Source: Squalus acanthias (taxonomy: Eukaryota). Taken from it: DNA of 64,000 bases. Location of the stretch: the NCBI GenBank assembly GCA_030390025.1, contig CM059432.1, positions 60,328,001 through 60,392,000 on the forward strand, in the 5' to 3' direction. Positions 1,883-55,046 of the stretch are shown one piece after another (position 1 is the first letter of the stretch; the number at the start of each line of letters is the position of its first letter). A program made the translations under genes and the position numbers. The notes below the pieces were generated by a model. The model did no database searches. It was not told the DNA's origin and worked only from the letters and a program-made list of their open reading frames with translations.

Positions 1883-2280
1883 GGAGGAAAAATTCGGTAC
1901 CTTAGCGCCTCCTGTTAGCATCAGCCGCTAACAGTTATCTCCAGGAGCCTCAACATCAGACGGATCGTGGCATCAGTGAGTGTGCAACGCTCACTGGCTG
2001 CCCTATCTGCGAAATTGATTGTCGCCACCTACATTAGCGCCTGGAGTAAACAGCGACAGGGAGAGCTGGCATGAAGCAGCAGGAAGCCGGCTCCAGGGAC
2101 ATTATTTAAAGGGATCATCAGTAATGAGTCGCAGCTGTAGGTTAGTGGTATTTCAGTGCTTACTTGTCAGTTTCACATAGTCCAACAGCCTCATTCCGTA
2201 ATTTCAAGGTTATTTAGTATCAGGAGTGTTGTGGCAACTAAAAAGTAGCTACATTTATTTATTATAGTAGCCACACAGCC

Positions 2281-3143
2281 GATCCTTCCAGTTTGCAACA
2301 GGAGACATAGCAAACATCTCGCAGTTCGCCATCCATCGCTGCATCTGGGATGTCACAGAGGCTCTCTACAGTAGGAGAAGGGACTACATTTCCTTCCCCA
2401 TCACCAGAGAGAAGCAGGATGAACGCACATGTGGCTTAACCAGGATAGCAGAATTCCCCATGGTGCAGGGTACCACTGACTGCACCCACGTGGCTTTGCG
2501 GGCACCGCATAACAATCCTGAGATTTTCTGTAACCGCAAAGGCTACCACTCACTTAATGTCCAGTTGGTGTGTGACCACAGACAGCTAATCATCAATGTG
2601 AATGGCCGCTATCATGGTAGCAGCCACAATGCCTTTATCCTGTGCCAGACCGGTATGCCAGCACTCTTCTAACCACCACGACCAGCTCGTGGCTGGCTGC
2701 TCGGAGACAAGGGCTATCCGCTCTCCACCTGGCTCATGACTCCCTTCCGCAACCCCAACACTCCTGCCCAGCACTCATATAATGAGAGCCATGCTGCCAC
2801 CAGGAACATCATTGAACAGACCATCGGGGTGCGCAAGCAATGGTTCCACTGCCTTGACCGCTCAGGCGGAGCCTTCCAGTACTCGGCTGAGCGGGTGTCC
2901 CATTTCGTGGTGGTCTGCTGCATGTTCCACAAATTGGCCATCATGAGGGCCCAGCCCTTGCCAGCAGGGATTACGGGACCACCTCAGGAGGAGGAAGAGG
3001 GAGAGGAGGAGGAGGATGAGAAGGAAGAGGAGGATGAGGAGGACAACGAGGAGGAGGCACAGGAGCGAGGGAGGAGGCAGCCACTCAGTCGGCCTTCCAG
3101 AAGGGCGGTCCGTGACTGCCTCATCAGACTGCGGTTCGAATGA
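2281..3143 (+). pseudogene. H1 Harbinger DDE transposase (5'-deleted, internal stop)
   Basis: [37 protein letters not shown] motifs; acidic tail; TAA at 2670-2672. Confidence 0.9.
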
Positions 3144-3665
3144 ATTAAACCCCAGATCCCTGTTGCTCACCACATTCCCATCATTCCATCCCTGTCGCAG
3201 GCCATACCACAGCGCAAAGCTGAAATGAGACACACCACAAAAGAATCCAAACTGAATTAATAAATTTATCAACAATCAGTGAACACATATTTACAACAAC
3301 AAAATTAACTATTCACCCTTGTGCAATCCCTTAGTGCCTGTCGTTACTCTGCCTTTGCCTACTCTAGTGCTCCTACGAAGTGTTGGCCCAGTGGCTGCAG
3401 CACTGCTTGTGGAAGGCTGCTGAGTGTCCATGTGGGAGACTTCAGATGGCCTTGCAGGATGCCCTTGACCAGCTCTGGGCCTGGAAGGCCCGGCTGTAGA
3501 TTGCATCACCTCAGCATGGGCGGCAGCAGTCTGGGCTGGCTGGATGACAGGCAGCAACAAGAGCAATGGTGGAGTGGCAGTGGAGGGAGCAGGAATGCTG
3601 TCATCCTGAGAGAGTTATAGAGGTCATGATGTGGAGATGCCGGCGTTGGACTGGGGTGGACAAAA

Positions 3666-4060
3666 ATGAGAAGTCGCACAACACCAGGTTATAGTCCAAC
3701 AGATTTATTTAATTTTACAAGCTTTCGGAGCAGTTCGCTCCTTCGTCAGGTAAGTTTAGCAGTGAGAGAATCTCCCAGAATTCACAATTTAAACACAGAC
3801 AAAATATATTCAAATCTTTCCCACATCAAAGAGCATAGCCAAGACAATGAGATGTGTCCCAGGGGGTCCAACGTGTCAAACCACCTGCTGGCTGCATATC
3901 CTGTCAATCTGTGTAGGTTCTTGTGTTAGCCTTTTTTAAAAAAAAACACCTGGGAAGACCGGCCATGATGTCAAGTCACGTTCTGTATCGTGACATGAAC
4001 CCGATATCGCGATTGAGGCCCTCCTCATGAGTGCGGAACTTGGCTATCAGTTTCTGCTCT
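3666..4060 (-). repeat. Left inverted pLTR arm (395 bp)
   Basis: Reverse complement of 6634-7028; one difference noticed (T/A run). Confidence 0.95.
3715..3753 (-). ncRNA. Minimal hammerhead ribozyme motif (inverted copy)
   Basis: Reverse complement of 6941-6979. Confidence 0.85.
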
Positions 4061-6718
4061 CTTGACACCGCAAACTGCCGGCTCAAAGTGGAGAGAATCG
4101 CCAAGAAGATCGCGCATATTGACACAGACATCAAGTACCCGCAGAGATGCAAGAAAGCAGACAAGATTCCGAAAGGACTACAGATCACGAACCCACTCAA
4201 GTCGACATACAACACAGACTACGCTGAGAGACTTTGCCGTCGTACCTCTCGCACACTCCTCAACCATCTCGTACACCAGCTCTACAGCAGACGTCGCAAC
4301 CTCGAAACCAAGATAGAGTCCATGCTCTCAGCCTGTGCTCAGGACACAGCAGACCAGCTACGAGACACCGCCAAACAGACGAGGCAACGGAACTACGCTG
4401 CCTACATGCGCATCAAGAACAGGAAGCTTGAGAAACTCGGCGTAACCACCAGCTACAACCAAGCCTCCCCCGGTACCACGGTTGCAACCACAGGGAAGTC
4501 CATCGTCAACCTGTCGGACCACACCCTTCAACCAGACGAAATCGAAGTTCTCGCCCTAGGGCTCACGTTCTGCCCCACCACCAAAATGGACCCCATCGGT
4601 CTCGCGGCGGACACAGAGGAATTCATCAGGAGAATGAGGATCCGGGAATACTACCACAAATCCCAAGATGTCAGCAACATTCCTAATGGGACAATCAATG
4701 ATCCGGAACAGCAGGCAGTGCTACAACCGAGGAAGAAAGAGTCAAATTGGACCCCTCCGGAGGGTCGCAACCCTAAGCTTGACATGTATGCTCAAGCTGT
4801 CAGGAAATGCATCAACGCCAGATTCATCAGCCGTACTCACAAGACAGTCCAGAATGTCACCCGAGCACAACGCAACGCCATCCACGCACTCAAGACCAAC
4901 CGCAACATCGTCATCAAACCAGCGGACAAAGGAGGAGCCATCGTCATACAGAACAGAATGGACTATTGCAAAGAAGCATACCGACAACTGGACAACCAGG
5001 AACACTACAGACAGCTACCCGCAGATCCGACCAAAGAACACACCCACCAACTCAATAGACTGATCAAGACCTTCGATCCAGACCTTCAAAACATCCTACG
5101 CGCTCTCATCCCACGTACTCCCCGCGTAGGAGACTTTTACTGCCTCCCAAAGATACACAAAGCCAACACACCTGGACGTCCTATCGTATCAGGCAACGGA
5201 ACCCTGTGTGAGAACCTCTCTGGGTACGTCGAGGGCATCCTGAAACCCATCGTACAGGGAACCCCCAGCTTCTGTCGCGACACTACAGACTTCTTGCAGA
5301 AACTCAGCACCCATGGACCAGTTGAACCAGGAACACTCCTCGTCACAATGGACGTATCGACACTCTACACCAATATCCCCCACAATGACGGCATCGCTGC
5401 GACAGCCTTAGTACTCAACACCAACAACAGCCAATCTCCGGACGCCATCCTACAACTCATCCGCTTCATCCTTGACCACAATGTCTTCACCTTCGACAAC
5501 CATTTTTTTACCCAAACACACGGAACAGCCATGGGGACCAAATTCGCACCCCAATATGCCAATATCTTCATGCACAAGTTCGAGCAAGACTTCTTCGCTG
5601 CACAGGACCTCCAACCAACGCTGTACACCAGATACATCGACGACATCTTCTTCCTTTGGACCCACGGCGAAGGATCACTGAAAGGACTACACGATAGCAT
5701 CAACAGGTTCCATCCCACCATCAAACTCACCATGGACTACTCCTCAGAATCGGTTTCATTCTTGGACACACGAATCTCCATCAAAGACGGACGCCTCAGC
5801 ACTTCACTCTACCGCAAGCCCACGGACAACCTCACGATGCTCCACTTCTCCAGCTTCCACCCTAACCACGTTAAAGAAGCCATCCCCTATGGACAAGCCC
5901 TGCGAATACACAGGATCTGCTCAGACGAGGAGGAACGCGATGGACACCTACGGACACTGAAAGACGCCCTCGTAAGAACGGGATATGACGCTCGACTCGT
6001 CGATCGACAGTTCCGACGGGCCACAGCGAAAAACCGCATAGACCTCCTCAGAAGACGAACACGGGACACAACCAACAGAGTACCCTACGTCGTCCAGTAC
6101 TTCCCCGGAGCGGAAAAACTACGCCATGTTCTTTGCAGCCTTCAACATGTCATCGATGACGACGAACACCTTGCTAAGGCCATCCCCACGCCTCCACTAC
6201 TCGCCTTCAAGCAGCCGCCTAACCTCAAAAGTACCATCGTTCGCAGCAGATTACCCATCTTTCAGGCGAACAGCAACCAAGACACCACACAACCCTGCCA
6301 CGGCAACCTCTGCAAGACATGCCAAATCATGGACACAGATACCATCATCACACGTGAGGACACTACCCACCAGGTACACGGTACATACTCATGTGACTCG
6401 GCCAACGTTGTCTACCTGATACGTTGCAGTAAAGGATGCTCCAGAGCATGGTACATCGGCGAGACCATGCAGACACTGAGACAACGTATAAACGGACACC
6501 ACGCAACAATCGCCAGGCAGGAGGGTTGCCTCCCAGTCGGGGAACACTTCAGCAGCCAGGGGCATTCAGCCTCGGATATGCGGGTAAGCGTTCTCCAAGG
6601 CGGCCTTCGAAATACACGACAGCGCAAAATCATAGAGCAGAAACTGATAGCCAAGTTCCGCACTCATGAGGAGGGCCTCAATCGCGATATCGGGTTCATG
6701 TCACGATACAGAACGTGA
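4058..6718 (+). CDS. PLE reverse transcriptase + GIY-YIG endonuclease (open frame; native ATG displaced by inversion)
   Basis: IKPADKGG, YCLPKIHK, GRPIVS, DVSTLYTNIP, GTAMG, RYIDDIF, FLD, YRKPT; Cys-rich linker PCHGNLCKTC; NVVYLIRC...WYIGET; no stops. Confidence 0.93.
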   Translation, partial: SLDTANCRLKVERIAKKIAHIDTDIKYPQRCKKADKIPKGLQITNPLKSTYNTDYAERLCRRTSRTLLNHLVHQLYSRRRNLETKIESMLSACAQDTADQLRDTAKQTRQRNYAAYMRIKNRKLEKLGVTTSYNQASPGTTVATTGKSIVNLSDHTLQPDEIEVLALGLTFCPTTKMDPIGLAADTEEFIRRMRIREYYHKSQDVSNIPNGTINDPEQQAVLQPRKKESNWTPPEGRNPKLDMYAQAVRKCINARFISRTHKTVQNVTRAQRNAIHALKTNRNIVIKPADKGGAIVIQNRMDYCKEAYRQLDNQEHYRQLPADPTKEHTHQLNRLIKTFDPDLQNILRALIPRTPRVGDFYCLPKIHKANTPGRPIVSGNGTLCENLSGYVEGILKPIVQGTPSFCRDTTDFLQKLSTHGPVEPGTLLVTMDVSTLYTNIPHNDGIAATALVLNTNNSQSPDAILQLIRFILDHNVFTFDNHFFTQTHGTAMGTKFAPQYANIFMHKFEQDFFAAQDLQPTLYTRYIDDIFFLWTHGEGSLKGLHDSINRFHPTIKLTMDYSSESVSFLDTRISIKDGRLSTSLYRKPTDNLTMLHFSSFHPNHVKEAIPYGQALRIHRICSDEEERDGHLRTLKDALVRTGYDARLVDRQFRRATAKNRIDLLRRRTRDTTNRVPYVVQYFPGAEKLRHVLCSLQHVIDDDEHLAKAIPTPPLLAFKQPPNLKSTIVRSRLPIFQANSNQDTTQPCHGNLCKTCQIMDTDTIITREDTTHQVHGTYSCDSANVVYLIRCSKGCSRAWYIGETMQTLRQRINGHHATIARQEGCLPVGEHFSSQGHSASDMRVSVLQGGLRNTRQRKIIEQKLIAKFRTHEEGLNRDIGFMSRYRT

Positions 6719-7028
6719 CTTGACATCATGGCCGGTCTTCCCAGGTGTTTTTTTTTTAAAAAGGCTAACACAAGAACCTACACAGATTGACAGGATATGC
6801 AGCCAGCAGGTGGTTTGACACGTTGGACCCCCTGGGACACATCTCATTGTCTTGGCTATGCTCTTTGATGTGGGAAAGATTTGAATATATTTTGTCTGTG
6901 TTTAAATTGTGAATTCTGGGAGATTCTCTCACTGCTAAACTTACCTGACGAAGGAGCGAACTGCTCCGAAAGCTTGTAAAATTAAATAAATCTGTTGGAC
7001 TATAACCTGGTGTTGTGCGACTTCTCAT
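6634..7028 (+). repeat. Right pLTR arm (395 bp), AATAAA at 6985-6990
   Basis: Overlaps the ORF end, as is typical for PLE pLTRs; inverted copy at 3666-4060. Confidence 0.95.
6941..6979 (+). ncRNA. Minimal type I hammerhead ribozyme motif
   Basis: TTAC-CTGACGA-A-GGAGC-gaact-GCTCC-GAAA-GCTT-GTAA: stem I TTAC/GTAA, stem II GGAGC/GCTCC, palindromic loopless stem III. Confidence 0.85.
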
Positions 7029-8994
7029 CCTGAGAGAGGACAGCAGGTTCCTGCTCCACTGACCCACTGCCACTCTCCCGGGGCAGTACCTCAGCATCTC
7101 TATCAATCTGTTGGAGCACAGATTGCTGGCCTGCTGCGACACCATGAAGGCCCCAGTCGACAGTGGTAGACCCAGCCACGATGGCAGCAGTCAGAGCTTG
7201 CGTGGCATCAAGCTGAGACTGCATGAGAGCAGTCTGAGATTGAATGGCACCAACCATAGACTGCATTACAACACTAAGATGTTGCGTTGCTTCTGCCTAT
7301 GCTGCAATGGAAGCTGCCAGATCATCTATTACACGTGGTCTCTCTGGGAGTCTATCATCCTTTGCAGACTGTAAATGATGGGCTCCATGGTGTGTGCAGA
7401 GCCTTGTACAATGTTGAAGACGGACTCCTCCACGCACCTTATCATTGCCGAGAGGCTATCGGGGACCCTTGCCATTGCAGCTATCATCTCCACGTGCATG
7501 CCCATCACCCTTCTTCTAAACGCCACCCTATCGAGGTCCTCATCTGAGCCCTGTGCAGCAGAACTCACACGTGAACTCGCCCTCCGGGGAGCTGAACCCC
7601 GAGCTACCCTTTCCCCCTGGCCTTGCTGCAGCCCACTCGTCCCCAGTGCCTCACCCTGTGCAGATCCCGCTACTATACTAGCCTCTAAAGAATGAGTAGT
7701 GCCAGTATCTGAGTGGGTGCCTGCGGGTGAGACATGCAGTGACGTGGTGTGTTCTTCCTCCCCCTCTTCTCCCGCCTCGCTCTCTGCAGTGCCCTCAGGG
7801 ACAGGCTGCTCAGGTGCTTGCTCATTATCTGAAAGCATAAAGGCACAAGAGTCGAGTTAAGGTGAGGGGAGGGGACAGGAAGGGAGAAATGCATGCAAAG
7901 AGCATGATTAGCTGGAAAGTGCGAAACACTTGTGGGGTGAGGGGGAAGTGGGATGTGAGAAGGAGTAGGGATGAACGTACCGTTGTTGTCCCCAAGGGGG
8001 TCAATGTCGCCAGTGGCTACGGCACCCGCCATCTGGCACCCAATGATCTCCAGCACTCTATTTTCCAGTGCAGACAGTGGTTGGGTGTCGACTTGTTACC
8101 CCCCCACCCCCTCTTTATGCTCCTGCTCCCTCCTGTTGTGAGCCACCTTGGCCTGCAAGAGAAAGGAAAGTGTGTGAGTGAGTGTGGAGCAATATGTTTG
8201 GGTGATGTGCCTGCCATAGTTGAATAGCTGTCATTGTGTGCAAGGTGTGAGATGTGGGTGTGAGTGTTGGCTGGTAGAGATTGTTGGTGGGTGAGTGCTG
8301 GGGGTGTGGTGCTTTGGTCAGTGTGTGCAGACTGAGGTTCAGATGGTGGTATGTAGCATTTGTTGAAGCATTCACTCACCCTGACCAACTGAGTGAGGTC
8401 GTTAAATTTCTTCCTGCAATGTGTGTGGGTGCTGGGGACCACAGTGCTGCCCCAGATGTCCTCCGCTACCTCCCTCCACATGGTGCGGAAGACTTGCGGC
8501 GAGGGCCTCCTGCCACTTGCCAGGTAGAGCACCGCCCTCCGTCTCTCGACAGCGAACACCAATGCCTCCAATGCTTGATCGCTGAATCTGCGGGCTCTCG
8601 CCCTGGGGCGTGGATCTGCCATGAGCACAGCTGCTTCAGTCCTCCGGCTCCTTTTCCTTGACCTGCTGCTGCTTGCTGAGGAAGCTGCACAGCCAGCAAT
8701 GCTGAGAATGAGGGTCTGTAGCATCAATGAACTTTCCCGTTAAGAACTGGAAAAAGCCTGTGGCAATCATGACTTGCGATTAGAATGCACCTGATATTGG
8801 TCCACCCTTTGAGTGTAATGCCAATGAGCTTGGGCTTAAAGACTTGAATTAGTGCTCCAATCATTTCTTTGAGCAGTGAGCATGAATTTTGCGTGCAGTC
8901 TAAAGCATTAGCGCCTAGCGTTAATTCTCCAACTTTTCTAATTTTAGCACCCATTCCTGGGCTATAATGAATTTCTAGCCCTATGTTTTTATGC

Positions 8995-27482: not shown

Positions 27483-27666
27483 CTTCAATTGATCTTCCTG
27501 ATCGATCAATGTCCTTGTCATCATCACCAGCTTTGCTCTCACTGCATTTTGAGTCCTCTCCACATGGGTGAGCTGTTTCTTCACGATGCTTAGCTTGCCA
27601 TTATTAAATTTTACAGCTTCTTGTATTTGCCGGATCTCTTTCTTCATTGTATTTCTTTCCTGACGA
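27483..27666 (-). CDS. CCDC178: Host coiled-coil gene exon (184 nt, phase 2 to 0): RQERNTMKKEIRQIQEAVK...DQEDQLK
   Basis: AG...GTTAGT boundaries, open frame, phase matches previous exon; gapless resemblance to human CCDC178 as I recall it (needs BLAST). Confidence 0.75.
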
Positions 27667-27741
27667 CTTTAACAGATATGCTTTTTAAATTTAAAATTTA
27701 AAATACTGATGGTTGAATAAAAATCAATTTATATCACATAC

Positions 27742-27878
27742 CTTTCTTTAATGTCTTGGTTAAAAATGTCAATCTCCAATTCAAGTTCTTTGTTTTTGTT
27801 CTCCAAACGCTTAAGCTCATACAGTTTTCTGTCAAGTTCTTTTTGTTGTTTTGATAACTCAGAGTTGCCAATTCTTGT
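27742..27878 (-). CDS. CCDC178: Host exon (137 nt, phase 0 to 2): TRIGNSELSKQQKELDRK...NKELELEIDIFNQDIKE
   Basis: TAG...GTATGT boundaries; ELS / NK.LE..I / ES pattern resembles recalled CCDC178. Confidence 0.75.
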
Positions 27879-28924
27879 CTACATAAAAATAAAATAGATA
27901 AAATCACCCCAATTAAAAGTCACAGCAAAGCATACTACCAGCAAGAAATCCATTAAAGAATATTAATGCAATACATTTATCTCAAAGTATATAAGGTACA
28001 AGAAAATAAGCATTTTTATAAACCAAATTCCAAGTTCTCATCTGGAGCATTTCAAATTTTAACATACTCACAAAGAAATTGTCCAATTTTCAATTTTCTC
28101 TTGGCCAAAATACTGGTCAGCAGTGAAGAAAAAAGTTGTTTTGAGCTATAAAAGTTAATTACATTCATGTGGCACAGTATATTGCCACTCTAATGGACTG
28201 TGCCAAGAAGTGGTAAGGAGTGGGTTTACAGTCTTCATTTGCAATGCTATGAATTACTAACTTTGACTGTGTGGTCAGAAGGAAGCCAAGCATTGGAGAT
28301 CTACAGGTGAGGGGGAGAAACGTATTAGTGGACAAGTCACCACAGTCAACTCTTAAGAACCTTTTAGTAATCGGCTCAATTCATTAGCGGAGAACTGGAG
28401 TCAGGTTACCGTCTTAGGCAGGGAATGGTTAGTAACCCAGGTAGGTTCTACAAGGGAGATTAAAATAATAGAATAAAAAAAACAATAATAAAGCTAATGA
28501 CATCAAACACACAACATGGGTTCCTGCCTGTGATTCCTCAAAGTGTCAGTTCCCAATATTGGCTGTGCTGTTGGGGCAAGGCAATGAAAAAAAGACAGAC
28601 AATTCTCCATAAACAAGACAAAAGCCCCACTTCCTCAAAAGAATCAGTGGTCAAGAATGACAAAAGTCGAGGTAGGAAATCAGGTTAACTGGCTACTTTC
28701 TCAGTCAGGGAATGATGCTCAGTAGACTAAAGAAAGTAGGAGAAAAAGTGGCAGGAGCTGAAAGTAATAAGATAAAAATATTGTAAGAGAATATTGCTGT
28801 AGGGAAAGTACATTCTATTTTTTTCCTTTCCTCACTAGTTTTCTCCATGTTTGGAGGCATTGATTTCAATGGAATGAAAATTGGTCAGATTCTACAACGA
28901 GCAGGTCATCCACTCTGCCAGATT

Positions 28925-29100
28925 ACAACAATTTGCATTTATATAGCGCCCTTAATGTAGTAAAACATCCCAAGGCACTTCACAGGAGCGTTATCAAATA
29001 AGGTTTGACACCAAACCAAAGAAGGTGATATTAGGACAGATGACCAAAAGCTTGCTCAAAGAGGTAGGTTTTAAGGAGCGTCTTAAAGGAGAGAGCGATA
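28925..29100 (-). mobile_element. L2-type LINE 3' end fragment
   Basis: TTGCATTTATATAGCGCC is the same tail as the DeuSINE; upstream sequence differs from the SINE body. Confidence 0.6.
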
Positions 29101-29107
29101 GAGATGC

Positions 29108-30591
29108 AAAGTTTGTAGGAACATAGGAAGGAATATAGAAACAGGGTTAGGGCATTTACCCCCTGGAGCCTGTTCCAACATTCATAGCTGATCTGTATCT
29201 TAACTCCATCTACCAGGCTTGGTCTGTAACCCGCAATACCTTACGTAACAAAAATCTATCAATCTCAGTTTTTAAATTTTCAATTGACCTAGCTTCAACA
29301 ACTTTTTGGGGGGACAAAGTTTCAGATTTGCACTACCCTTTGTGTGAAGAACTGCTTCCTGACATCACCCATGAACGGCTTACCTCTAATTTTAAGGTTA
29401 TGCCCCCTTTGTTCTGGACACGTCCAGCAGACAAAATAGTTTTCTCTCTATCTACCTTATCAAATCCTTTAATCATCTTTAACACTTCAATTAGATAGCC
29501 CATTAATCTTCTATATTCAAGGAAATACAAGCCTAGTCTATGCAACCTGTCCTCATAATTTAACACTTTTCGCCCCGGTATCATTCTAATGAATCTGTGC
29601 TGCACCCCCTCCAAGGCCAATATATCCTTCCTGAGATGTGGTACCCAGAACTGAATGCAATACTCCAAATGGGGCTCTTTTTTTATTATTCGTTTGTGGG
29701 ATGTGGGCGTCGCTGGCAAGGCCAGCATTTATTGCTCATCCCTAATTGCCCTTGAGAAGGTGGTGGTAACCAGCACCTTAACATAACTTCCACCCCTTTG
29801 TATTCCAGCTCCCTTGTGATAAAGGCCAACATTCCATTAGCCTTTTCATTTATTTTTTGCACATGTCCATTAGCTTTTAGTGTTTTCTAAACATGGACCA
29901 CTAAATCTCTCTGCTCATCCACTGTTCCGAGCTTCTCGCCATTTAGAAAATACACTGATCTAGAAACATAGGAACAGGAGTTGGCCATTTAGCTCCTTGA
30001 GCCTGTTCCGCTATTCAATGAGTTCATGGCTGATCTGTGACCTAACTCTACATACTTGCCTTTGCCCCATACCCTTTAATACCTTTGGTTATTACCACAG
30101 TTTTGCCCATTCGCTTAATCTTTTAATATCTCTTTGTAATTTGATGATTCCATCTACACTGCTTACAGTGCCGCCAATCTTATGTCATCGGCAAACTGGG
30201 ATATGTGGCTTTCTATCCCATCATCTAAGTCGTTAATAAATACGGCGAATAGTTGAGGCCCCAACACAGATTATTGCAGGATACCACAATCGCATCCTGC
30301 CAATTAGAGTAGCTGCCCATTATCCCTACTCTCTGTCTCCTGCCACTCAGACAATTTCCTAACCAGGTCAATAATATGCCTTCGATTCCATTGGCTTCAA
30401 CCTTAGTTAATAATCTCTTACGAGGGACTTTATCAAATGCATTCTGGAAGTCCATATAAATAACATCCATAAAGACATTCCCCTGTCCACTACTTTAGTC
30501 ACCTCTTCAAAAAATTCAATCAGGTTCATCAGGCATGAATCCAGAGAACTTTGGAAGATTATAGTTAGGGCATCTGCATTGTTCTCACCTA
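29108..30591 (-). mobile_element. Outer CR1 copy with small nested LINE tails; appears to resume near 39350
   Basis: PHLEYCIQFW, MDFQNAFDKVP, LIEFFEEVT. Confidence 0.8.
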
Positions 30592-31229
30592 AAAACATAA
30601 GAGCACACAAATGGGAGCAGGAGTAGGCCATACGGCCCCTCAAGCCTGTTCCGCCATTTAATAAGATCATGGCTGATAGTCGAGCTCAACTCCACTTTCC
30701 CGCGCGAATCCTATATCTCCCGATTTCCTTAGAGACCAAAAATCTAACAATCTCAGCCTTGAATATACTCAACGACTGAGCATCCACAGCCCTCTGGGGT
30801 AGAGAATTCCAAAGCTTCAACCCTCTGAGTGAAGAAATTTCTCCTCATCTCAGTCCTAAATGGCTGACCCCTTATCCTGAGACCATGCCCCCCAATTCTA
30901 GACTCTCCAGCCAGGGGAAACAGCCTCTCAGCAGCTACCCTGTCAAGCCCCCTCAGAATCTTATATGTTTCGATGAGATCACCTCTCATTCTTCTAAACT
31001 TCACAGAGTATAGGCCCAGTCTACTTAATCTCTCCTCATAGGATAACCCTGTCGTCCCAGGAATAAATCTAGTGAACCTTTGTTGCATCCACTCTAGTAG
31101 ACCAAAACTGTGCACAGTACTCCAGGTGTGGTCTCACCTAAGCCTTGTACAATTGCAGCAAGAATTCCTTACTCTTGTACTCCAATCCACTTGCAATAAA
31201 GGCCAAAATACCATTTGCCTTGCTGTACC

Positions 31230-34200
31230 TTTTTCTTTATTTCATTCATGAGATGTGAGCGTCGCTGGCAAAGCCAGCATTTATTGCCCATCCCTAATTG
31301 CCCTTGAGAAGGTGGTGGTGAGCTACCTTCTTGAACCGCTACAGTCTGTGTAGTGAATGTACTCCAACAGTGCTGTTAGGTAGGGAGTTCTAGGATTTTG
31401 ATCCAGCGACAATGAAGGAACGGTGATACATTTCCAAGTCAGGATGGTGTGTGACTTCGAGGGGAACTTGGAGGTGGTAGTGTTCCCATGCACCTGCTGC
31501 CCTTGTCCTTCTAAATGGTAGAGGTCGCAGGTTTAGGAGGTGCTGTCAAATAAGCCTTGGCGGGTTTCTGCAGTGCATCTTGTAGATGATACACACTGTA
31601 GCCATGGCACGCTGGTGGTGGAGTGAATGTTTACAGTGGTGGATGGGGTGCCAATCAAGCGGGCTGCTTTGTCCTGGATGGTGTCGAGTATCTTGAGTGG
31701 TGTTGGAGCTGCAATCATCCAGGCAAGTGGAGAGTATTTCATCACACTCCTGACTTGTACCTTGTAGATGGTAGAAAGGCTTTGGGGAGTCAGGAGGTGA
31801 GTCACTCGCTGCAGAATACCCAGCCTCCAACAGTATTTACGTGGCTGGTCCAGTTAGGTTTCTGGCCAATGGTGACACCCCAGGATGTTGATGGTGGGGG
31901 ATTTGACGATGGTAATGCCGTTGAATATCAAGGGGAGGTGGTTAGACTCTCTCTTGTTGGAGATGGTCATTGCTCAGCACTTGTGTGGCATGATTGTTAC
32001 TTGCCACACAGCCCAAGCCTGAATGTTGTCCAGGTCTTGATGCATGTGGGCACAGACTGCTTCATTATCTGAGGAGTTGTGAATGGAATTGAACACTGTG
32101 CAATCATCAGCAAACATCCCCACTTCTGACCTTATGATGGAGGGAAGGTCATTGATGAAGCAGCTGAAGATGGTTGGGACTAAAATACTGCCTTGAGGAA
32201 CTCCTGCAGCGATGTCCTGGGGCTGAGGTGATTGACCTCCAACAACCATAACCATCTTCCTTTGAGAGCTAGGTATGACTCCAGCCAGTGGAGAGTTTTC
32301 CCCCTGATTCCCATTGAAATCAATTTTACTAGGGCTCCTTGATGTTACTAGGCCACACTCGGTCAAATGCTGCCTTGATGTCAAGGGCAGTCACTCTCAC
32401 CTCACCTCCGGAATTCAGCTCTTTTGTCCATGTTTGGATCAAGGTTGTAATGAGGTCTGGAGCCGAGTGGTCCTGGCGGAACCCAAACTAAGCATCGGTG
32501 AGCAGGTTATTGGTGAGTAAGTGCCGCTTGATAGCACTGTCAACAACCCTTCCATCACTTTGCTGATGGTTGAGAGTAGACTGATGGGGTGGTAATTGGC
32601 CGGATTGGATTTGTCCTGCTTTTGGTTGACAGACTATGGGCAACACGGTGGCATAGTGGTTAGCACTGTTGCCTCACAGCGCCAGGGACCCGGGTTCGAA
32701 TCTGACCTCGGATGACTGTCTGTGTGGAGTTTGCACATTCTCCCCGTGTCTGCGTGGGTTTCCTCCGGGTGCTCCGGTTTCCTTCCACAGTCCAAAGATG
32801 TGCGGGTTAGGTTGATTTGGCTATGATAAATTCACCCTTAGTGTTAGGGGGATTAAATACGTGGGGTTACGGGGATAGGGTGGGATATGTGTCGATGGGC
32901 TGAAATGGCCTCTATCTGCACTGTGGGGATTCTGTGATTCTGTGAGGACATACCTGGGCAATTTCCCACTTTGTTGGGTAGATGCCAGTGTTGTAGCTGT
33001 ACTGGAACCGCTTGGCTAGAGGTGCAGCTATTTCTGGAGCACAAGTCTTCAGCACTACAGCTGGGATGCTGTCGGAGCCCACAGCCTTTGCTGTATCCAG
33101 TGCGCTCAGCCATTTCTTGATATCATGTGGAGTGAATCGAATTGGCTGAAGACTGGCTTCTCGCGGAGCAGGCTCGAAGGGCTGAATGGCCTACTCCTGT
33201 TCCTATTTTTCTATGGTGGGGACCTCAGGAAGAGGCCGAGACGGATCATCCATGCGGCACTTCTGGCTGAAGATGGTTGCAAACACTTCAGCCTTGTCTT
33301 TTGCGCTCGCGTGCTGGGCTCCGCCATCATTGAAGATGGGAATGTTCATAAAGTCTCCTCCTCGCATTAGTTGTTTAATTGTTCACCACCATTCATGACT
33401 GGATGTGGCAGGACTTCAGAGCTTTGATCTGATCTGTTGGCTGTAGGATTGCTTAGCTCGGTCTATAGCATGCTGCTTTCGCTGTTTAGTATGCATGTAG
33501 TCCTGTGTTGTAGCTTCACCAGGTTGGTATCTCATTTTTAGGTATGCCTGGTGCTGCTCCAGGCATGCTCTTCTACATTCCTCATTGAACCCCTGGCTTG
33601 ATGGTAATGGTAGAGTGAGGGATATGCCGGACCATGAGGTTACAGATGGTGGAATACAATTCTGCTGCTAATGGCCCACGGCGCCTCATGGATGCCCATT
33701 TTTGAGCTGCTATATCTGTTCTGAATCTATCTCATCTATCACGGTGGTAGTGCCACACAATATGATGGAGGGTATCCTCAGTGTGAAGACAAGAACTGTG
33801 TGGTGGTCACTGCTACCAATACTTTCATCTGCGACTGGTAGCTTTGTGAGGACGAGGTCAAGTGGGTTTTTCCCTCATATTGTTTCTCTTGCTATCTGCC
33901 ACAGGCCCATTCTGGCAGCTATGTCCTTCAGGATGTGGGCTGCTTGGTCAGTAGTGGTGCTACCAAGCCACTCTTGCTGATGGACATTGAAGTCCCCCAC
34001 CCAGAGTACATTCTATGCCCTTCCAAGTGGCGTTCAACAGTGGAAGAGTACTGATTCATCAGCTGAGGGAGAACGCTAGGTGGTAATCATCAGAAGGTTT
34101 CCTTGCCCATGAGATTTCATGGGGTCCAGAGTCAATTTTGAGAACTCCAAGGGCCACTCCCTCCCGACTGTATACCACTGTGTCGCCACCTCTGGTGGGT

Positions 34201-34638
34201 CTGCCTGGTGGGACAGGACATGATGGTGCTGGAGGAGTCTGGGACATTGGCTGAAAGGTATGATTCTGTGAGTATGACTGTATCAGGCTGGTGCGTAACT
34301 AGTCTGTGGGGCAGCTCTCTCAATTTTGGCACAAGTCCCACGATGTTCGTGAGGAGGACTTTGCAGGGTTGACTGAGCTGGATGTGCCAAGGTCAATGCC
34401 GGGTGGTCCATCCGGTTTTATTCTTATTATTGTTTAATGTAGAAGTTTGATTCAACGGAGTGGCTTCCAAGGCCATTTCAGAAGGCAGTTAAGAGTCAAC
34501 CACATTCCAGCTTTATTGAACTAACTGAATTTAAATTCCCCAGCTGCCATGGGATTTGAACTCACGTCTCCGGATCATTAGTCATCCAGGTCTCTGGATT
34601 ACTAGTCTATTAACATAACCACAATGCTACCTTACCCC
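31230..34638 (-). mobile_element. Near full-length CR1-group LINE family B (endonuclease + RT, decayed) with tRNA-like 5' head
   Basis: PDTVILTESYL endonuclease start near 34341; GVPQGS and FADD; same 3' end as 11970-13303; A/B boxes at 34629-34552. Confidence 0.8.
32638..32943 (+). mobile_element. V-SINE (HE1-like) inserted in the LINE
   Basis: TGGCATAGTGG A-box, GGTTCGAATC B-box, V-domain TGTGTGGAGTTTGCACATTCTCCCCGTGTCTGCGTGGGTTTCCTCCGG, CR1-type tail. Confidence 0.9.
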
Positions 34639-35160
34639 TGCATGTTAACTTTCTGGGGGAAGAAGTCGGTTGGTTTGCGCCTCCCGTTAGCGCCTTAAGA
34701 GGGCGCTAATGAGGCGCAAAGCAACCAGCGCCCGGGCGCGGCGATCTCTGCGCCGCTCGCGAAATTGACCAGACATTTTGCAGCGGCGCTAAGCACTACC
34801 ACCCCGATCTCCAGCGCCCGCAGATCGTGACGTCAGTCGAGCTTGCAACACCCTTGTGGTGCCCCGGACTGGATATTGAGTGGCGCCCCCCTCCTTTCCG
34901 CCTGGCGCAAGCAACGACAGGGAGACTGGAATGTTTCCCAGTCAGTGAGGGGCTGGGGGGCGCTATTTAAAGGCGGCCTCTTCCTGGCTTTTTCTGTGGT
35001 AGACATTTTTGCACCACTCATTCTGACGGAGAGAGAGATTCGGAGAGAGAGGAGAGACTTCTGCATAGAGTCAACGCTGTCTGAAGTAGTTTTGGCTACT
35101 GAGCATCACTTTGCAGGTACTTTTGGATTTGACCTTCATTACTTCGATTACTAAGAGACT

Positions 35161-36253
35161 ATGGGGGCTGCACTGATTCAGGGCGTCATCCTGCGCCTGC
35201 AGAATCGGAGGCAACAGAGACGCAGAGAGAGAGTGGCAATCATGGCCAGACGGAGGAGGGCCAACAGGCCTCTGTACAGGAGACCTTACCCTCCCAGGGT
35301 ATTTCGACAACAATTTTCCTACATTCATTTGTCTGAGGAGCAGTGACTTGCGCGGGCTGTGCTTCAGCAAGGAGGTGGTCACTGAGCTCTGCCACCTGCT
35401 GCAGCCAGATCTGCAGCCTCTACTGAGGACCAGGACGACTCTGTCAGTGGCAATGAAGGTCACAGTGGCTCTGAACTTTTATGCCACCGGCTCCTTTCAA
35501 GCAGCTACTGGGGACATCGCCAAAATCTCCCAGTTCGCGGTCTATTGCTGTATCCGTCAGGTCACAAATGCCCTCTATAAAAGGAGACGCCAGTATATCT
35601 CTTTCCCGATGACCCGGGCCAAACAGCATGAACGCGCATTGGGCTTTGCGAGGATAGCGGGCTTCCGCATGGTGCAGGGTGCCATTGACTGCATGCATGT
35701 GGCATTGCGGGCACCGCATGAGAATGCAGAGGTTTTCCGAAACCGCAAGGGGTTCCACTCCTTAAACATCCAGTTGGTCTGTGCCCACAGACAGCTGATA
35801 CTCGCTGTCAATGCCCGCTATCCTGGCAGCAGCCACGATGCTTTCATCCTGCGCCAGACTGCTGTGCCAGAACTTTTCCAGGCACCGCATCAGCAAAGTG
35901 GTTGGCTCCTCGGGGACAAGGGTTATCCACTGTGCTCCTGGCTGATGACACTGCTCCGTAACCTCAACACCCCTGCTGAGCTGCGGTACAACGAGAGCCA
36001 TCTCGCCACCAGGAACATCGTTGAGCAGACGATCGGCGTGTTCAAGCAACGGTTCCGCTGTCTGGACCACTCAGGAGGAGCCCTGCAGTACTCACCTGAG
36101 CGAGTCTCCCTCTTCATAGTTGTGTGCTGCATGCTGCATAACCTGGCAATCCTCAGGACCCAGCCAATGCCACCAGGCCTTGGAGCACCACTGGAGGAGG
36201 AGGAGGAAGAGGTGAAGGAAGAGGAGGAGGAAGAGGGAAGAGGAGGAGGATGA
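35161..36253 (+). pseudogene. H4 transposase; a 1-nt insertion near 35346 separates the 61-aa N-terminus from the 301-aa core
   Basis: RRPYPPRVFR, IDCMHV, HDA, LGDKGY, VEQTIG, CCMLHN. Confidence 0.9.
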
Positions 36254-36645
36254 TCAGCAGTCGCACCAAGGCGGGAGGGAGGCCCACAATGTTGAAACTG
36301 CAAGGGACATCCGTCAATGGCTGATAAGAAGCCGCTTCTAGGCCCCTACTGAGGAAATGGCTTCTGGCATGGAGAACAACATGAATGAAAGCAACCCGCA
36401 ACCCCTAAGCCGGCCAAGGCAGCAATGATTCCAAACCTGTACATATTGAATACAAAAACTTTTTTATTTTACAAACTCTGTGTGTGTCATTTCTTCATGA
36501 CAAACTAATAGAAACAAACACAAAAAATAATTCATTAACATAACTGGTTCTCACAACCTGGAGATAATGTCCAAAACACGAAACAAAAGTTTGAACACGA
36601 ACCTCGGCCTTTAATAAAAAATTGACCAACATTTCGTCACACCTC

Positions 36646-38457
36646 CTACTTTTTGCCCTTCGAGGGTGATCTCCTTCCCTTGCGCACTTCCCCCCTTCCC
36701 ACCCTACTGCTCCTCTGTAATGGGGCCCCAGTGGCTGCAGCAAGGCTGGTGGAAGGCTGCTGATTGTCAGAACCTGAGACTACAGATGCCCTTGAAGGAC
36801 GGCCTCGACCAGCTCTGGGCCTGGAGGGCCCGGCTGCAGACTGCACCAACTCTGCATGGGCGGCAGCAGTCTGGGCTACAGGTGGTGGCAAGTGCAATGG
36901 GGAAGTGACAGTGGTGGCAGCAGGAATCGTGAGCGAGGACAGCAACTCACTGCTCGACCAACACACTGGCACTCCCATGGGGCAGCACATCAGCATCCGG
37001 AGCAATCTGCTGGAGCACAGATTGCTGGCCTGCTGCGGCACGGTGAGAGCCCTGGGGAAATGTGTCCGAACCAGCGACAATGGCAGCAGTCAGTGCTTGC
37101 GTGTCCTCAATCTGAGTCTGCATGAGAGCAGTCTGACATGGGATCACGGCAGCCAGTGACTGAATTGCAGCACTAAGCATTAGCGTGGCATCCGCCTGTG
37201 CTACAGCGAAGTGCTCCACACTCCTTGCCAGTGCATCAATGCATTCGGGCACCCTTCCCACTGCACCCATGAGCTGAGTGTGCATGTCCACCGCCTGGGT
37301 GTTCATTTCAGCGATGAGCCGCTCCTCCTCTGCGTCCAGTGCAGCAGGACTCGCTGGCCTACTCTCCTTCCGGGGAGAAGGCCCCTGAGCTTCCCTAGCC
37401 ACATCGCGTTGCTGCTGCCCGCTGGGTCCTGGAGCTTCATCCTCATCAGACCCTTCACCCCTGCTCCCCTCCAGGGAAGACGTGTTCCCAGTGTGGGCAT
37501 GGGCTTCCTCAGGAGAGGGTGGCGCTGATGCTCCGGCTTCATCTTCCTCCTCGCCTGCAGCTTCACTCCCACTGGCAGCTTGAGGGCCCGTCTCCTCAGC
37601 TGGTGAATCACCATCTGAAAGCAGGGAGGTACAAGAGTGGCTTTAGCGTGAGGACAGGGGGGCAGTAAGGGAGGAAGGAGTGCAGCGATTTAGTAAGTTG
37701 GATTGAAAGTGTCAAAGGCTGGTGTTGTGAGGGACAAGTGGAATGAGATAGGAGAGAAAGCTGATGACATTACCATTGCTGTCCCGAATGGGGTCGGCCT
37801 CTCCAGTGGCGACGGGACCGATCACCTGGCTTGCCACAATCCTGTGGACGCGCGCCTCAAGATCGCTGAGGGGTTGCAGCTGAGGCCGCCCTCCACCCGT
37901 CTGTTGCTGCTGTCTCCTATTATGAGATAGCTTGGCCTGCAAGAAAAAGGACGGCGTCTGAGTAAATATTCAGCCATGGTCTTGTCTGATGTGCCTCCCA
38001 TAATTGAATAGCCCTTAATGTATGCAGCCATGGTCTTGCCTGATGTGTCTCCCATAGTTGAATAGCCCTTACTGTATGCAAAGTGTGGAATGTGCATGTG
38101 TGTTTCATGAGAGGGCCATAGGTGTTGGATGAGTGTTGGGCATTGGGGTTTTAAGACCCTCTGGCCATAGAGTGAGGTTGAGATGGAGGGATGGAGAGGT
38201 ATTGAAAAAAAGCCACTCACCCTGACGACCCGAGTGAGGTCGTTGAACGTTTTGCGACATTGAGTATGGGTCCTGGGCACTATGCTCCTGGAGGAGACGT
38301 GCTGAGCCACCTGCCTCCACACTCTTCTGTAGTCGCGCGGCAAAGGCCTCCTGCCACTCTCAGGGTAGAGTATAGATCTTCTGCGCTCCACCGCGCCAAC
38401 CAGAGCCTCCAAGGCCCACTCGCTGAAATGCTGAGCTCGTTCTCTCACCCTCTCCAT
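36646..38457 (-). pseudogene. H4 Myb/SANT gene, 3 exons (38457-38221, 37936-37774, 37614-36646)
   Basis: MERVRERAQHFSEWALEALV; exon 2 AKLSHNRRQQQQTGGG; consistent GT-AG phases; frameshift near 36960. Confidence 0.85.
37971..38078. repeat. Tandem duplication, 2 x 54 bp, in H4 Myb intron 1
   Basis: CAGCCATGGTCTTG...GAATAGCCCTTA.TGTATG twice with few mismatches. Confidence 0.85.
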
Positions 38458-39394
38458 AGTCCTTGGCTGGAAAATGTAGTCACAGGTCTCTCCAGGCCGA
38501 GATTCAAGGCTCCAATGAGCAGGGTGTGGCTGGAGAGCAAGATCGACCCTCCCCTTTAAGAACTGTCCGGCGCCAGTGTGTCTGTGTTCCATCGTTAACT
38601 GACATCACCTGCGCTGCGCCCGCGCTCTGAGTTAGCACCTCGCTCCTCGGCCTTTGCGCCTTAAGACAGGTGTGCAGCGCCTGATTTAGCACTCCAATCA
38701 CCTCCAGGGGCGATAAAAGCCAAGTTTGCAGTCGGAGGCGATAATTAGCGCCAGGCGCTAAACTTTGCGCCCGGCCGATAATCGCACCCCAAACGGGGCG
38801 ATACTGAATTTCTCCCCCTCTGTGTTTTGTGTACAAGGACACCCAAATCCCTCTGAAAACCAACATTTAATAGTTTCTGACCATTTAAAAAATATTCTGT
38901 TTTTCTATTCTTCCTACCAAAGTGAATAATCTCACTTTCCCCCACATTATATTCCATCTGCCACCTTCTTGCACATTCACTTAACCTGTCTATATCCCTT
39001 TGCAGGCTCTTTGTGTCTTCCTCACAGCTTACTTTCCCACCTAGCTTTTTATCGTCAGCAAACTTGGATACTTTACACTCAGTCCCTTCATCTAAGTCAT
39101 CAATATAGATTGTAAATAGCTGAGGCCCCAGCACTCATCCTTGCGGCACCCCACTAGTAAACACCTTGCCAACCTGAAATGACCCGTTTATTCCTACTCT
39201 CTGTTTTCTGTCCTTTAACAAATTCTCTATCCATGCTGACATATTACTCCCAATCCCATGAGCCCTTATCTTGTGTAACAACCTTTCATATGGCACCTTA
39301 TTGAATGCATTTTGAAAATCCAAATATACTACATCTACTGGTTCCCCTTTAATTCCTGGGATGGAAACCATCTGGCCCTGGGGATTTGTCACTC

Positions 39395-40140
39395 ATTAGT
39401 GCTTTCTTATGTCCAAAGAGGATGACTTCACACTTTCCCACATTGAACTCCATCTGCCACAATTTTGCCCAATCACTTGATCAATCAATGTCCCTTTGCA
39501 AGTTATTTACTGTGCCACCTTAAAGTTAGCGCTGTCAGCAAATATAAATATGCAGCTCACTATTCCTTCATCTAAGTCATTTATAAATATAGTGAAAAGT
39601 TGAGGTCCCAGCACAGATCGCTGGGGGAAACCCCTAGTCGCATCCTGCCAATTGGAGTGCATACTCATTATCCCTACTCTCTGTCACCTACCATCTCCTA
39701 ACCAATTCCCTATCCAAGCTAATAGGTTGCCTCCAATTCCATGCGCTTTTATTTTTGTTAACAGGCTCTTATGTGGAACTTTGTCGAATGCCTTCTGGAA
39801 GTCCATGTAAGTAACATCCATAGACACCCCCTATCTAGCATGTTAGTTACCTCCTCAAAGAATTCAACTAGGTTCTTTAGACATGACTTACCCTTTACAA
39901 ATCAGAGCTAGCTCTCTCTGATCAGTTCATATTTGTCCAAATGCTCTGTCACTCTGTCCCTAATAACAGATTCTAGTAACTTCGCCACAATGGATGTTAG
40001 ACTAATAGGTCTATAATTTCCTAGTTTATCTCTCCTACCTTTCTTAAATAATGGAGTGATATTGGCAATTTTCCAATCCAAGGGGACAATTCATGAATCG
40101 ATGATCATGGTAACGCATCAACAATTTCTGCACCTACTTG
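39395..40140 (-). mobile_element. Degenerate CR1 RT fragment
   Basis: Similar to the reverse complement of 9250-9960. Confidence 0.75.
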
Positions 40141-40477
40141 TACTTATGTCCCCCTGCCGCACAGGTGTGGTTTAGATTGATTTCGTGCCTCATTTAAAAA
40201 AGAATATTTTTTAATCCTCTTACGTAATATGGGGGGGAAAGTACCTACCTTGGATATGATCTTCCTCATTCTTTGACTGAAAGTTATCCTGCACATATCT
40301 CAGAATAGATCTATTAAGCAAGCTAAAAAATCAAGGACACAGTACCATGGCAAACTTTGTTTGTATTATTCTCCCTGTAGGTATATGATTTCCCTCCCCT
40401 ACTCTCACATTGCATTAAGCAAACGACTAAATAGCAGAAATGGGTTAAAGAAAGAATGACAGGGCAGAGTACTTCTA

Positions 40478-40968
40478 CGGGAAAAAATTTGTTAGCTCCA
40501 CTTCCTTCTTAGAGCGCTAACCCTGAATATCGGGGTAGTACGTTCTGCAGCGCTAAGCACTGGGCCAAGTAGCACTGCTGCATGGAAGGGCTTTTCCCCT
40601 CATTAAAGGGAAGGGCCCAAGCCCACAACTCCGCGGGGCCCTAGCTGGACCACCGGGGAGCGGGGTGCCGTGCCAGCAACCGGCACACAAGAGGAGTGCC
40701 GGGCTGCCAGATTGCGGCACGGACCCCGCATTCAAAGAGGCAACGGGCCGCCACAAGTAAGTCAGCCGATTTTTTATCCCCGCCCGCGAGCCTCCTGTCG
40801 CTCCATTCCCAACCCCTGAATAGGACGCTGTCATCGCCTGGCGCAAACTCCTGCTGAATTTAGCGGGAGTCGTTAGCGGCGCCCCGCCTGGGTGAAAAGT
40901 CATTTGTGCCCCGTTAGTGCCCCCCTGGGGCCCTAAAGAGAGGCGCAAATGCACCGAATTTATAGCCC
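40478..40968. mobile_element. GC-rich Harbinger-type MITE
   Basis: Ends CGGGAAAAAATTT / GAATTTATAGCCC; TSD CTA; right end resembles H1 and H4 termini. Confidence 0.7.
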
Positions 40969-54921: not shown

Positions 54922-55017
54922 TAATAAAAACAGAAAATGCTGGAAATGCATAGCAGGTTGATCAACATCTGAAAGAGAAAGATTAGCTTGATGTTTCATT
55001 TGCAACTCCATCAGAAC
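54922..55017 (-). mobile_element. Decayed pLTR fragment of the second PLE family
   Basis: AATAAAAACAGAAAATGCTGGAAA...; hammerhead core eroded. Confidence 0.6.
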
Positions 55018-55046
55018 ATTAAAAATGGGGAATAGCAGTCTCTTAC

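What the first reader, a model, noticed from the sequence alone, without database searches (positions are those of the whole stretch)
3715..6979. Minimal hammerhead ribozymes in both pLTR arms, now on opposite strands
Seen: CUGAcGA-A-stem II-GAAA-GCUU with stem I UUAC/GUAA, 5 nt before AATAAA. Stem III is a loopless palindrome (AGCU), the form known from PLE hammerheads thought to cleave as dimers. Inference: the tandem parent RNA would hold two copies able to dimerise; after inversion each strand has one from this element, and the 3715-3753 copy is sense to the host pre-mRNA.
Basis: partly seen in the sequence, partly recalled or inferred. Interest (0 to 1): 0.7.

Follow-up and report, generated by a model that had tools for sequence, protein, structure and literature searches.

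The report
Passenger ribozymes in shark Penelope insertion
Two identical copies of a tiny hammerhead-ribozyme motif sit in the mirror-image ends of a shark jumping gene, a layout already described for this class; here they likely rode along uncut and are predicted to be silenced by pairing between the two ends, so the finding is ordinary.

Summary
Observation confirmed. Identical 39-nt minimal type-I hammerhead motifs lie at 6941-6979 (+) and 3715-3753 (-), inside 395-nt inverted arms (394 of 395 complementary) of a young Penelope-like retroelement (PLE; Neptune-type motifs) in a shark. Such motifs, their palindromic stem III, the dimer idea and opposite-strand pairs were published in 2014 (PMC4209133). 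It is unlikely to cut that RNA: no same-palindrome partner lies on its strand in the window, and its own antisense arm is transcribed first (predicted duplex -785 kcal/mol). The insert runs unbroken through both predicted cut sites. The tail of the inverted arm ends where the forward ORF begins (codons 3-5), which fits two primings on one uncut tandem RNA. The empty target is a 7-bp palindrome around a 12-nt spacer and seems to be a hotspot. Cleavage was not testable: the one raw RNA run laid no reads. This scan noted the twin-primed layout, passenger ribozymes and symmetric hotspots before on other shark DNA. New member of a known kind; interest 0.2.

The parts
6941..6979 (+). Minimal type-I hammerhead motif in the 3' pLTR; predicted cut after U6975
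3715..3753 (-). Identical hammerhead motif in the inverted arm; predicted cut after 3719; sense to the host gene
6985..6990 (+). AATAAA hexamer 5 nt after the motif (mirror copy 3704-3709 on the minus strand)
   Evidence: no substitution at 5% share or more
6634..7028 (+). Right arm: last 85 nt of the ORF plus 3' UTR/pLTR
3666..4060 (-). Left (inverted) arm, 394 of 395 complementary to the right arm
3615..3665 (-). One-sided 51-nt tail; ends in the ORF start codon and 2-3 further codons
   Evidence: same tail as loose ends behind 7028 and at 18435-18473
4057..4063 (.). Inner seam; 4057-4060 fits both the end of the inverted arm and codons 2-3 of the ORF
   Evidence: (X1 loose end before 4057)
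4064..6718 (+). PLE ORF without its start codon: 884 codons without a stop; RT domain, DKG motif, CX4CxxC linker, GIY-YIG-type endonuclease motifs
3603..3614 (.). Left target-site duplication (12 nt by symmetry; 10-14 nt allowed by overlap with the element end)
7027..7038 (.). Right target-site duplication
3596..3602 (.). Left half of the 7-bp palindrome of the empty target (right half 7039-7045)
2271..8739 (.). Decayed Harbinger-type DNA transposon that received the insertion: DDE transposase pieces on + (2271-3143), Myb/SANT gene on - (from 8739, interrupted by the PLE)
27483..63471 (-). Four exons of the host gene, a CCDC178 orthologue (about 63318-63471, 55047-55142, 27742-27878, 27483-27666)

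Best explanation
The two motifs are the ordinary minimal hammerhead of a Penelope-like retrotransposon's terminal repeat, present twice because the insertion carries an inverted copy of that repeat, and at this locus they are likely inert passengers. Shown: motif, inverted arms, one-sided tail, target-site duplication, reading frame, and that the DNA runs unbroken through both predicted cut sites. Inferred: the element's endonuclease cut both strands of a palindromic target 12 nt apart; each DNA end primed reverse transcription on one uncut tandem RNA, one at the downstream pLTR end and one at the start of the ORF; the two cDNAs were joined head to head, which put one ribozyme on each strand. 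Inferred: in the CCDC178 pre-mRNA the antisense arm is made first and would pair with the motif-bearing arm over 395 bp, and no partner for stem III lies on that strand in the window, so the intron would not be cut here. In intact tandem copies elsewhere the pair probably cuts slowly, as a dimer and perhaps with help from the element's protein, at a step not needed for insertion.
For: Motif and controls. Across copies: no substitution at 5% share or more in 6941-6979 among contigs of 4 runs from three organisms (5738, 778, 752 and 1008 contigs laid), whereas loop II carries 1-nt deletions and 6980, 6981 and 6991 vary. In 8 aligned motifs (6 distinct) the core columns are invariant except N7, 49 of 54 cells pair and 7 of 9 pairs show a change on both sides. 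Element: RVT_1 E 5e-8, 90% identity to a Heptranchias perlo protein, 60% over 883 residues to P0002, whose residue 5 aligns with position 4064. Empty site seen once in a paralogous Harbinger copy at 14378-14387. Tail ends at codon 3-4, forward unit starts at codon 2-5; one X1 contig joins tail and ORF start directly. Arm-arm duplex -785 kcal/mol against -9.8 for the motif. Papers: minimal hammerheads in pLTRs, also on opposite strands, monomer inactive and dimer weak (PMC4209133); inverted pLTRs with tail and 9-10-bp duplication (PMC3846280); internal priming, protein-assisted cleavage, ribozyme mutants insert normally (PMC11167929).
Against: No cleavage or expression data for this family. Rfam does not recognise the motif. 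The conservation test is biased: only contigs at least 85% alike are laid, depth over the 5' half of the motif is far lower than over the tail, and the tail is just as conserved. The covariation comes largely from comparing two families chosen by their core. The tandem junction rests on one displayed contig. The seam letters 4061-4063 fit two readings. The downstream CCDC178 exons are outside the window, so the intronic position is inferred. Masking is a nearest-neighbour prediction over a 2.6-kb loop; fast co-transcriptional folding, RNA editing or helicases could free the motif. Two separate RNAs, or a circle, would give the same DNA.
Confidence: 0.72

Rival explanations
1. The two hammerheads cut the tandem transcript as a dimer, the unit was ligated into a circle, and both arms were copied from the single pLTR of that circle (the model proposed in PMC4209133).
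For: The insert is about 1.13 units long (3414 nt against about 3015), passes the cut site twice, and its arms are 394 of 395 alike, sharing a 5-nt loop II where many copies have 4 nt. A circle explains both facts without two repeats.
Against: A recently duplicated tandem gives the same picture. In the anole element unprocessed RNA was the dominant template and no read ends were found at the cut site (PMC11167929). The active double-hammerhead fold is not the predicted ground state (-16.9 kcal/mol against -17.8 for two monomers with stems I and II, and -23.3 for a palindrome-paired dimer without stem I).
Confidence: 0.12
2. The two arms were primed on two separate RNA molecules held by a dimeric protein; the abutting ends reflect a fixed initiation site and a fixed block, not one template.
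For: The protein is predicted to be a dimer and extends both strands from fixed internal sites (PMC11167929). Junction variants at the target end at several nearby positions.
Against: It does not by itself explain why the forward unit stops within 0-7 nt of where the other arm starts. It changes nothing about the ribozymes being uncut passengers.
Confidence: 0.1
3. The minus-strand copy is an active intronic ribozyme (or its AATAAA an active polyadenylation signal) that cuts or truncates the CCDC178 pre-mRNA, helped by a second family copy elsewhere in the gene or in trans.
For: It is sense to the host gene, the core is intact, and the family is abundant, so partners may exist outside the window.
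Against: The antisense arm precedes it in the same transcript. The other strict hit on the minus strand (48114) has a different palindrome, and the same-family copy at 18353 is on the opposite strand. Published activity is low even for dimers. The insertion is young, with no sign of orthologous conservation.
Confidence: 0.05
4. The motif is a chance or decayed hairpin without catalytic meaning.
For: No Rfam hit; loose pattern not above chance; U at position 17 is, from my own knowledge, a less favoured cleavage nucleotide than C.
Against: 0 strict hits in 300 shuffles; invariant core with compensatory stems; position in the pLTR as published.
Confidence: 0.01

Closest known systems
Minimal hammerheads (min-HHR) of metazoan PLE pLTRs, including Xena, Poseidon and Neptune elements of fishes (PMC4209133; parts 1-2 of 4 read)
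   Same: Type-I topology, 4-bp helix I, extra nucleotide between 9 and 10.1, G10.1-C11.1 pair, palindromic 15.2-16.2 without loop, position in the pLTR; pairs on opposite strands were also reported.
   Different: The opposite-strand pairs reported there were about 100-700 bp apart; here 3.2 kb, around a nearly whole ORF. Sharks are not named in the parts read; the supplementary alignments were not seen.
PAc (Poseidon of Anolis carolinensis; PMC11167929, parts 1-2 of 4 read)
   Same: Hammerhead near the pLTR-ORF junction, tail between two internal priming sites, both target strands cut and extended.
   Different: In PAc the ORF starts inside the ribozyme and priming lies 111-118 nt into the ORF; here the ribozyme ends about 90 nt before the start codon and the outer priming site lies at codons 3-5. 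This protein has the CX2-5CxxC linker that Penelope/Poseidon lack. The target here is not AT-rich.
Inverted-pLTR insertions of endonuclease-bearing PLEs (Pen2 of Adineta vaga, PMC3846280; Fig. 2 legend of PMC8557442; passages read)
   Same: [quoted passage not shown]
   Different: No direct upstream pLTR here; the tail is 51 nt rather than 30-40; tail end and ORF start abut, which those passages do not describe (they favour self-priming or endonuclease resolution).
Twin priming of LINE-1 (recalled, not read)
   Same: Inverted 5' segment, both target ends used as primers, little loss or gain at the breakpoint.
   Different: Here the inverted segment duplicates the 3' end because the template holds, or passes, the repeat twice.

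Membership tests
PLE minimal type-I hammerhead | Core CUGANGA, GAAA, UH | tested here: met
   6945-6951, 6968-6971, 6974-6975
PLE minimal type-I hammerhead | Helix II with G10.1-C11.1 and an extra nucleotide after A9 | tested here: met
   G6953-C6967, A6952; pair probability 0.99-1.0
PLE minimal type-I hammerhead | Short helix I (4-5 bp) with compensatory changes | tested here: met
   4 bp; all 4 pairs show a change on both sides among 6 distinct motifs, 83% of cells paired; small, motif-selected set
PLE minimal type-I hammerhead | Palindromic 15.2-16.2, no loop III | tested here: met
   6971-6974; cofolding pairs the palindromes of two copies
PLE minimal type-I hammerhead | Lies in the pLTR of a PLE | tested here: met
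   222 nt after the stop codon, inside the repeated arm
PLE minimal type-I hammerhead | Core conserved across copies | tested here: met
   No substitution row in 6941-6979 in 4 of 4 runs, with the 85% filter and low 5' depth as caveats
PLE minimal type-I hammerhead | Self-cleavage after position 17, dependent on a dimer or protein | not testable with these tools
   The only raw-read RNA run laid 0 reads; contigs cannot show ends
Rfam hammerhead families | Covariance-model match | tested here: not met
   0 matches at gathering score; no hammerhead family to E 10
Endonuclease-bearing PLE | Single ORF with RT and DKG motif | tested here: met
   RVT_1 33.4 bits, above cut-off; DKG at residue 288
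Endonuclease-bearing PLE | C-terminal GIY-YIG endonuclease with CCHH motif | tested here: inconclusive
   Motifs present by pattern at residues 783-829 and aligned with P0002; Pfam found no family in 6281-6715 at E 0.01
Endonuclease-bearing PLE | pLTR (direct or inverted), one-sided tail, target duplication | tested here: met
Neptune clade | CX2-5CxxC linker before the endonuclease (shared with Nematis) | tested here: met
   Residues 745-753; definition from PMC8557442
Neptune clade | RT phylogeny with named Neptune elements | not tested
   No named reference elements were fetched; no tree was built
Retrozymes (non-autonomous hammerhead elements) | Short non-coding unit | tested here: not met
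   884 open codons with RT
Domesticated intronic hammerheads (RECK type) | Stable helix III and conservation at an orthologous site | tested here: not met
   No helix III; young insertion in a transposon whose paralogous site is empty; orthologous loci of other sharks were not examined

The most novel reading that the evidence does not exclude
This insertion is a footprint of a circular RNA intermediate: the hammerhead pair cut and rejoined the unit, and a dimeric enzyme that had cut a palindromic target symmetrically primed both DNA ends on that one circle, copying its single ribozyme-bearing repeat twice. That would give PLE hammerheads their first in-vivo role and explain inverted pLTRs and tails in one mechanism.
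Probability: 0.12. Interest if true: 0.7.

Novelty: new member of a known kind. Interest (0 to 1): 0.2.

Why it matters
As a ribozyme finding it adds a shark example to a class known since 2014. Its use is as a specimen: a nearly full-length, young inverted copy shows that the template was continuous across both cut sites, in line with the in-vitro result that PLE hammerheads are dispensable for insertion, and its abutting tail and ORF start make the origin of inverted pLTRs testable (one tandem RNA, two RNAs or a circle). An effect on the host gene would matter more but is unlikely.

Tried and rejected
Rfam scans gave no hammerhead match. The loose core pattern was not above chance. No whole genome was held, so no genome-wide count was possible. 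Pfam on 336 open frames of at least 35 residues from stretches not repeated in the window gave 4 hits, all transposon-type, and missed the host exons; frames in repeated stretches were left out. The exons were found by a rough splice-site scan. A word-index search and an ESM Atlas search with the 63318-63470 exon found nothing. Sequencing runs: no RNA holder listed on record; the one raw RNA run (X21, another organism, about 12% read) laid 0 reads, which is no test; X8 is only guessed to be RNA and was not used as evidence of expression. No junction variants appeared at the right target junction (joints: none), so the hotspot rests on the left junction alone. Literature searches: Penelope + twin priming + inversion gave 3 papers, none on PLEs by title (listing only); Penelope/Neptune/target specific/Harbinger gave 11, none on this target by title (listing only); hammerhead ribozyme + shark + Penelope gave 1, where 'shark' refers to the shape; one search gave nothing relevant by title. 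Lunse et al. on PLE hammerhead dimers is not held; only its title and a review's summary were seen. Supplements of PMC4209133 and PMC11167929 were not opened and may list shark motifs or junction data. Rejected: post-insertion inversion of a tandem copy (the duplication flanks the whole inverted structure, and the breakpoint coincides with the tail end); retrozyme; domesticated ribozyme; a strictly site-specific element (the other family copy at 18102-18473 sits at another site).
Full report
Observation. The motif is as described. On the plus strand: stem I 6941-6944 with 6976-6979, core CUGAcGA 6945-6951, an extra A at 6952, stem II 6953-6957 with 6963-6967, GAAA 6968-6971, palindrome AGCU 6971-6974, U17 at 6975, and AATAAA at 6985-6990. 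The same 39 nt lie at 3715-3753 on the minus strand, because 3666-4060 and 6634-7028 are inverted arms that differ at 1 of 395 positions. The loose core pattern is not above chance (10 matches, 6.0 expected, 12 of 100 shuffles as high). A strict descriptor, written after seeing the motif, finds 4 sites in the window (6945+, 3749-, 18353+, 48114-) and 0 in 300 shuffles. Rfam gives no hammerhead match. Folding supports stems I and II (z -2.44; pair probabilities 0.71-0.87 and 0.99-1.0 in the whole arm).

The element. The arms flank 884 open codons (4064-6718) with an RT domain, a DKG motif, a CX4CxxC linker and GIY-YIG-type motifs; Pfam did not call the endonuclease part. The best relative is a Heptranchias perlo protein at 90% identity, so the host is a shark or close relative. 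The linker marks Neptune or Nematis rather than Penelope/Poseidon (PMC8557442, passages); no tree was built. The insert spans 3615-7028 inside the Myb/SANT gene of a decayed Harbinger-type transposon. The target duplication is 10-14 nt; a paralogous Harbinger copy at 14378-14387 has the site once. The empty site is a perfect 7-bp inverted repeat (3596-3602 and 7039-7045) around a 12-nt spacer, which makes 12 nt the symmetric reading (I looked for this after seeing note e1-9380332).

How the two copies arose. The inverted arm has a 51-nt tail (3615-3665) that ends in a start codon and two or three further codons. The forward unit starts at a residue that aligns with residue 5 of the full-length relative P0002. 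The seam 4057-4063 can be read in two ways, but in both the tail ends where the forward unit begins, with nothing lost and at most 7 nt shared. One displayed contig of run X1 carries the tail and start codon directly before 4057, so the un-inverted junction exists in this organism (1803 further loose-end rows were not shown). This fits two primings on one tandem RNA, one from each cut DNA strand (inference). It also means, directly from the sequence, that the copying ran through both predicted cut sites: neither ribozyme defined an end of the insert. Two RNAs on a dimeric protein, or a rejoined circle, give the same DNA and are kept as rivals.

Conservation across copies. Contigs of four runs (organisms A, B, C) were laid on 6930-7090 at 85% likeness (5738, 778, 752, 1008 contigs). 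The table of substitutions at 5% share or more has 5 rows, none in 6941-6979; the 4 deletion rows all fall in loop II; 6980, 6981 and 6991 vary. This favours a kept core, but the filter removes divergent copies, depth on the 5' half is low, and the tail is equally conserved. A metagenome scan gave 2 loci with a related motif whose stem I has a compensatory change. In an alignment of 8 motifs (6 distinct, two families) 49 of 54 cells pair, 7 of 9 pairs change on both sides, and 0 of 500 shuffles reach the covariation score, while the count of such pairs is reached by 75 of 500; the set is small and was picked by its core.

Dimer. The double-hammerhead fold of two copies is sterically consistent (all 22 pairs standard) but is not the predicted minimum: -16.9 kcal/mol against -17.8 for two monomers with stems I and II and -23.3 for a dimer joined by the 6-nt palindrome without stem I. 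The model ignores tertiary contacts. This agrees with the published low activity: monomer inactive, dimer and trimer weak (PMC4209133); no cleavage without protein, no effect of core mutants on insertion, and no read ends at the cut site (PMC11167929).

Host gene. A splice-site scan found coiled-coil exons on the minus strand. One matched P0123, named CCDC178 of Mobula birostris. Four exons between 63471 and 27483 cover residues 305-493 of 853; no convincing match for later residues lies in the window. But that transcript contains the antisense arm (7028-6634) before the motif; the predicted arm-arm duplex is -785 kcal/mol, and -75.5 over the motif alone, against -9.8 for the motif's own fold. 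The other strict hit on that strand (48114) has a different palindrome, and the same-family copy at 18353 is on the other strand. Cutting of the host RNA is unlikely; it was not testable.

Comparison and novelty. Minimal hammerheads in the pLTRs of fish PLEs, their palindromic stem III, the dimer hypothesis and pairs on opposite strands are all in PMC4209133 (parts 1-2 of 4 read). Inverted pLTRs with a one-sided tail and a 9-10-bp duplication are in PMC3846280 (8 passages) and PMC8557442 (two sets of 12 passages); PMC2377424 (7 passages) describes inverted and tandem Penelope copies; PMC6765202 (7 passages), PMC6155905 (9 passages) and bioRxiv 2026.07.22.740005 (8 passages) review or extend the link. 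My searches found no paper on twin priming in PLEs or on shark PLE hammerheads (listings only, open-licence library only; supplements not seen). Earlier notes of this scan describe the twin-primed layout, passenger ribozymes and symmetric hotspots on other shark DNA; they are leads, not support, and my twin-priming reading was recorded before I opened them.

Verdict. A real, well-formed but ordinary PLE minimal hammerhead, present twice through an inverted insertion. New member of a known kind. Interest 0.2; the circle reading, at about 0.12 probability, would deserve 0.7.

Noticed in passing
window 3612-3615 (Harbinger site) in runs X5 and X1: 5 of the 15 displayed joints link this Harbinger position directly to the PLE 3' end (3662-3667), in at least 6 forms (7 contigs in X5, 10 in X1; 87 further joint rows not shown). 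This suggests repeated independent insertions at the palindromic site. One amplified ancestor, or Tx1 elements carrying a PLE piece (note e1-9924692), are not excluded; no variants were seen at the right junction.
   Followed up: partly
window 6993-6999, table 5c: Three X5 contigs go from the PLE end (7028) back to 6994-6999, as if copies had inserted into, or duplicated, the family's own tail just after the AATAAA.
   Followed up: no
window 18102-18473 (+): A second, older copy of the same PLE family end (about 87% identity in the tail, 70% upstream) with a hammerhead at 18353 that has C at position 17 and a mismatch in stem I; it lies inside another Harbinger transposase remnant.
   Followed up: partly
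window 48090-48114 (-), 21977-22001 (+), 58608-58632 (+): A second family of minimal hammerhead motifs with different stems and a different palindrome; only 48114 passes the strict descriptor. It is sense to CCDC178.
   Followed up: partly
window 3704-3709 (-): The AATAAA of the inverted arm is sense to the CCDC178 pre-mRNA and could act as a cryptic intronic polyadenylation signal.
   Followed up: no
window 10870-11003: A 58-nt inverted repeat (88% complementary, 18-nt spacer), whose arm resembles the sequence that follows the second-family motifs; possibly a short fold-back PLE stub.
   Followed up: no
window 4064-6718: The ORF is free of stops yet differs from nearly all laid contigs at several positions (for example 5046, 5173, 5360, 5409, 6490), and the first in-frame ATG is at codon 87, so this copy is probably not a source element.
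   Followed up: no
whole window: Dense nest of Harbinger-type elements (several DDE and Myb/SANT-like frames, for example 15266-15766, 22572-23684, 35177-36253, 61110-62047) and CR1/L2-type LINE fragments inside CCDC178 introns; one CCDC178 intron is only about 75 nt (27667-27741). Family names beyond the Pfam hits are from recall.
   Followed up: no
L001:601-628 and L002:601-628: Near-identical hammerhead motifs of the same stem II type in two metagenome contigs (one named as marine), with AATAAA further downstream; probably PLE ends of an unidentified animal.
   Followed up: partly
protein P0026: A database gene model from Heptranchias perlo fuses an epsin-2 N-terminus to RT sequence of this PLE family; exon capture or an annotation artefact.
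   Followed up: no
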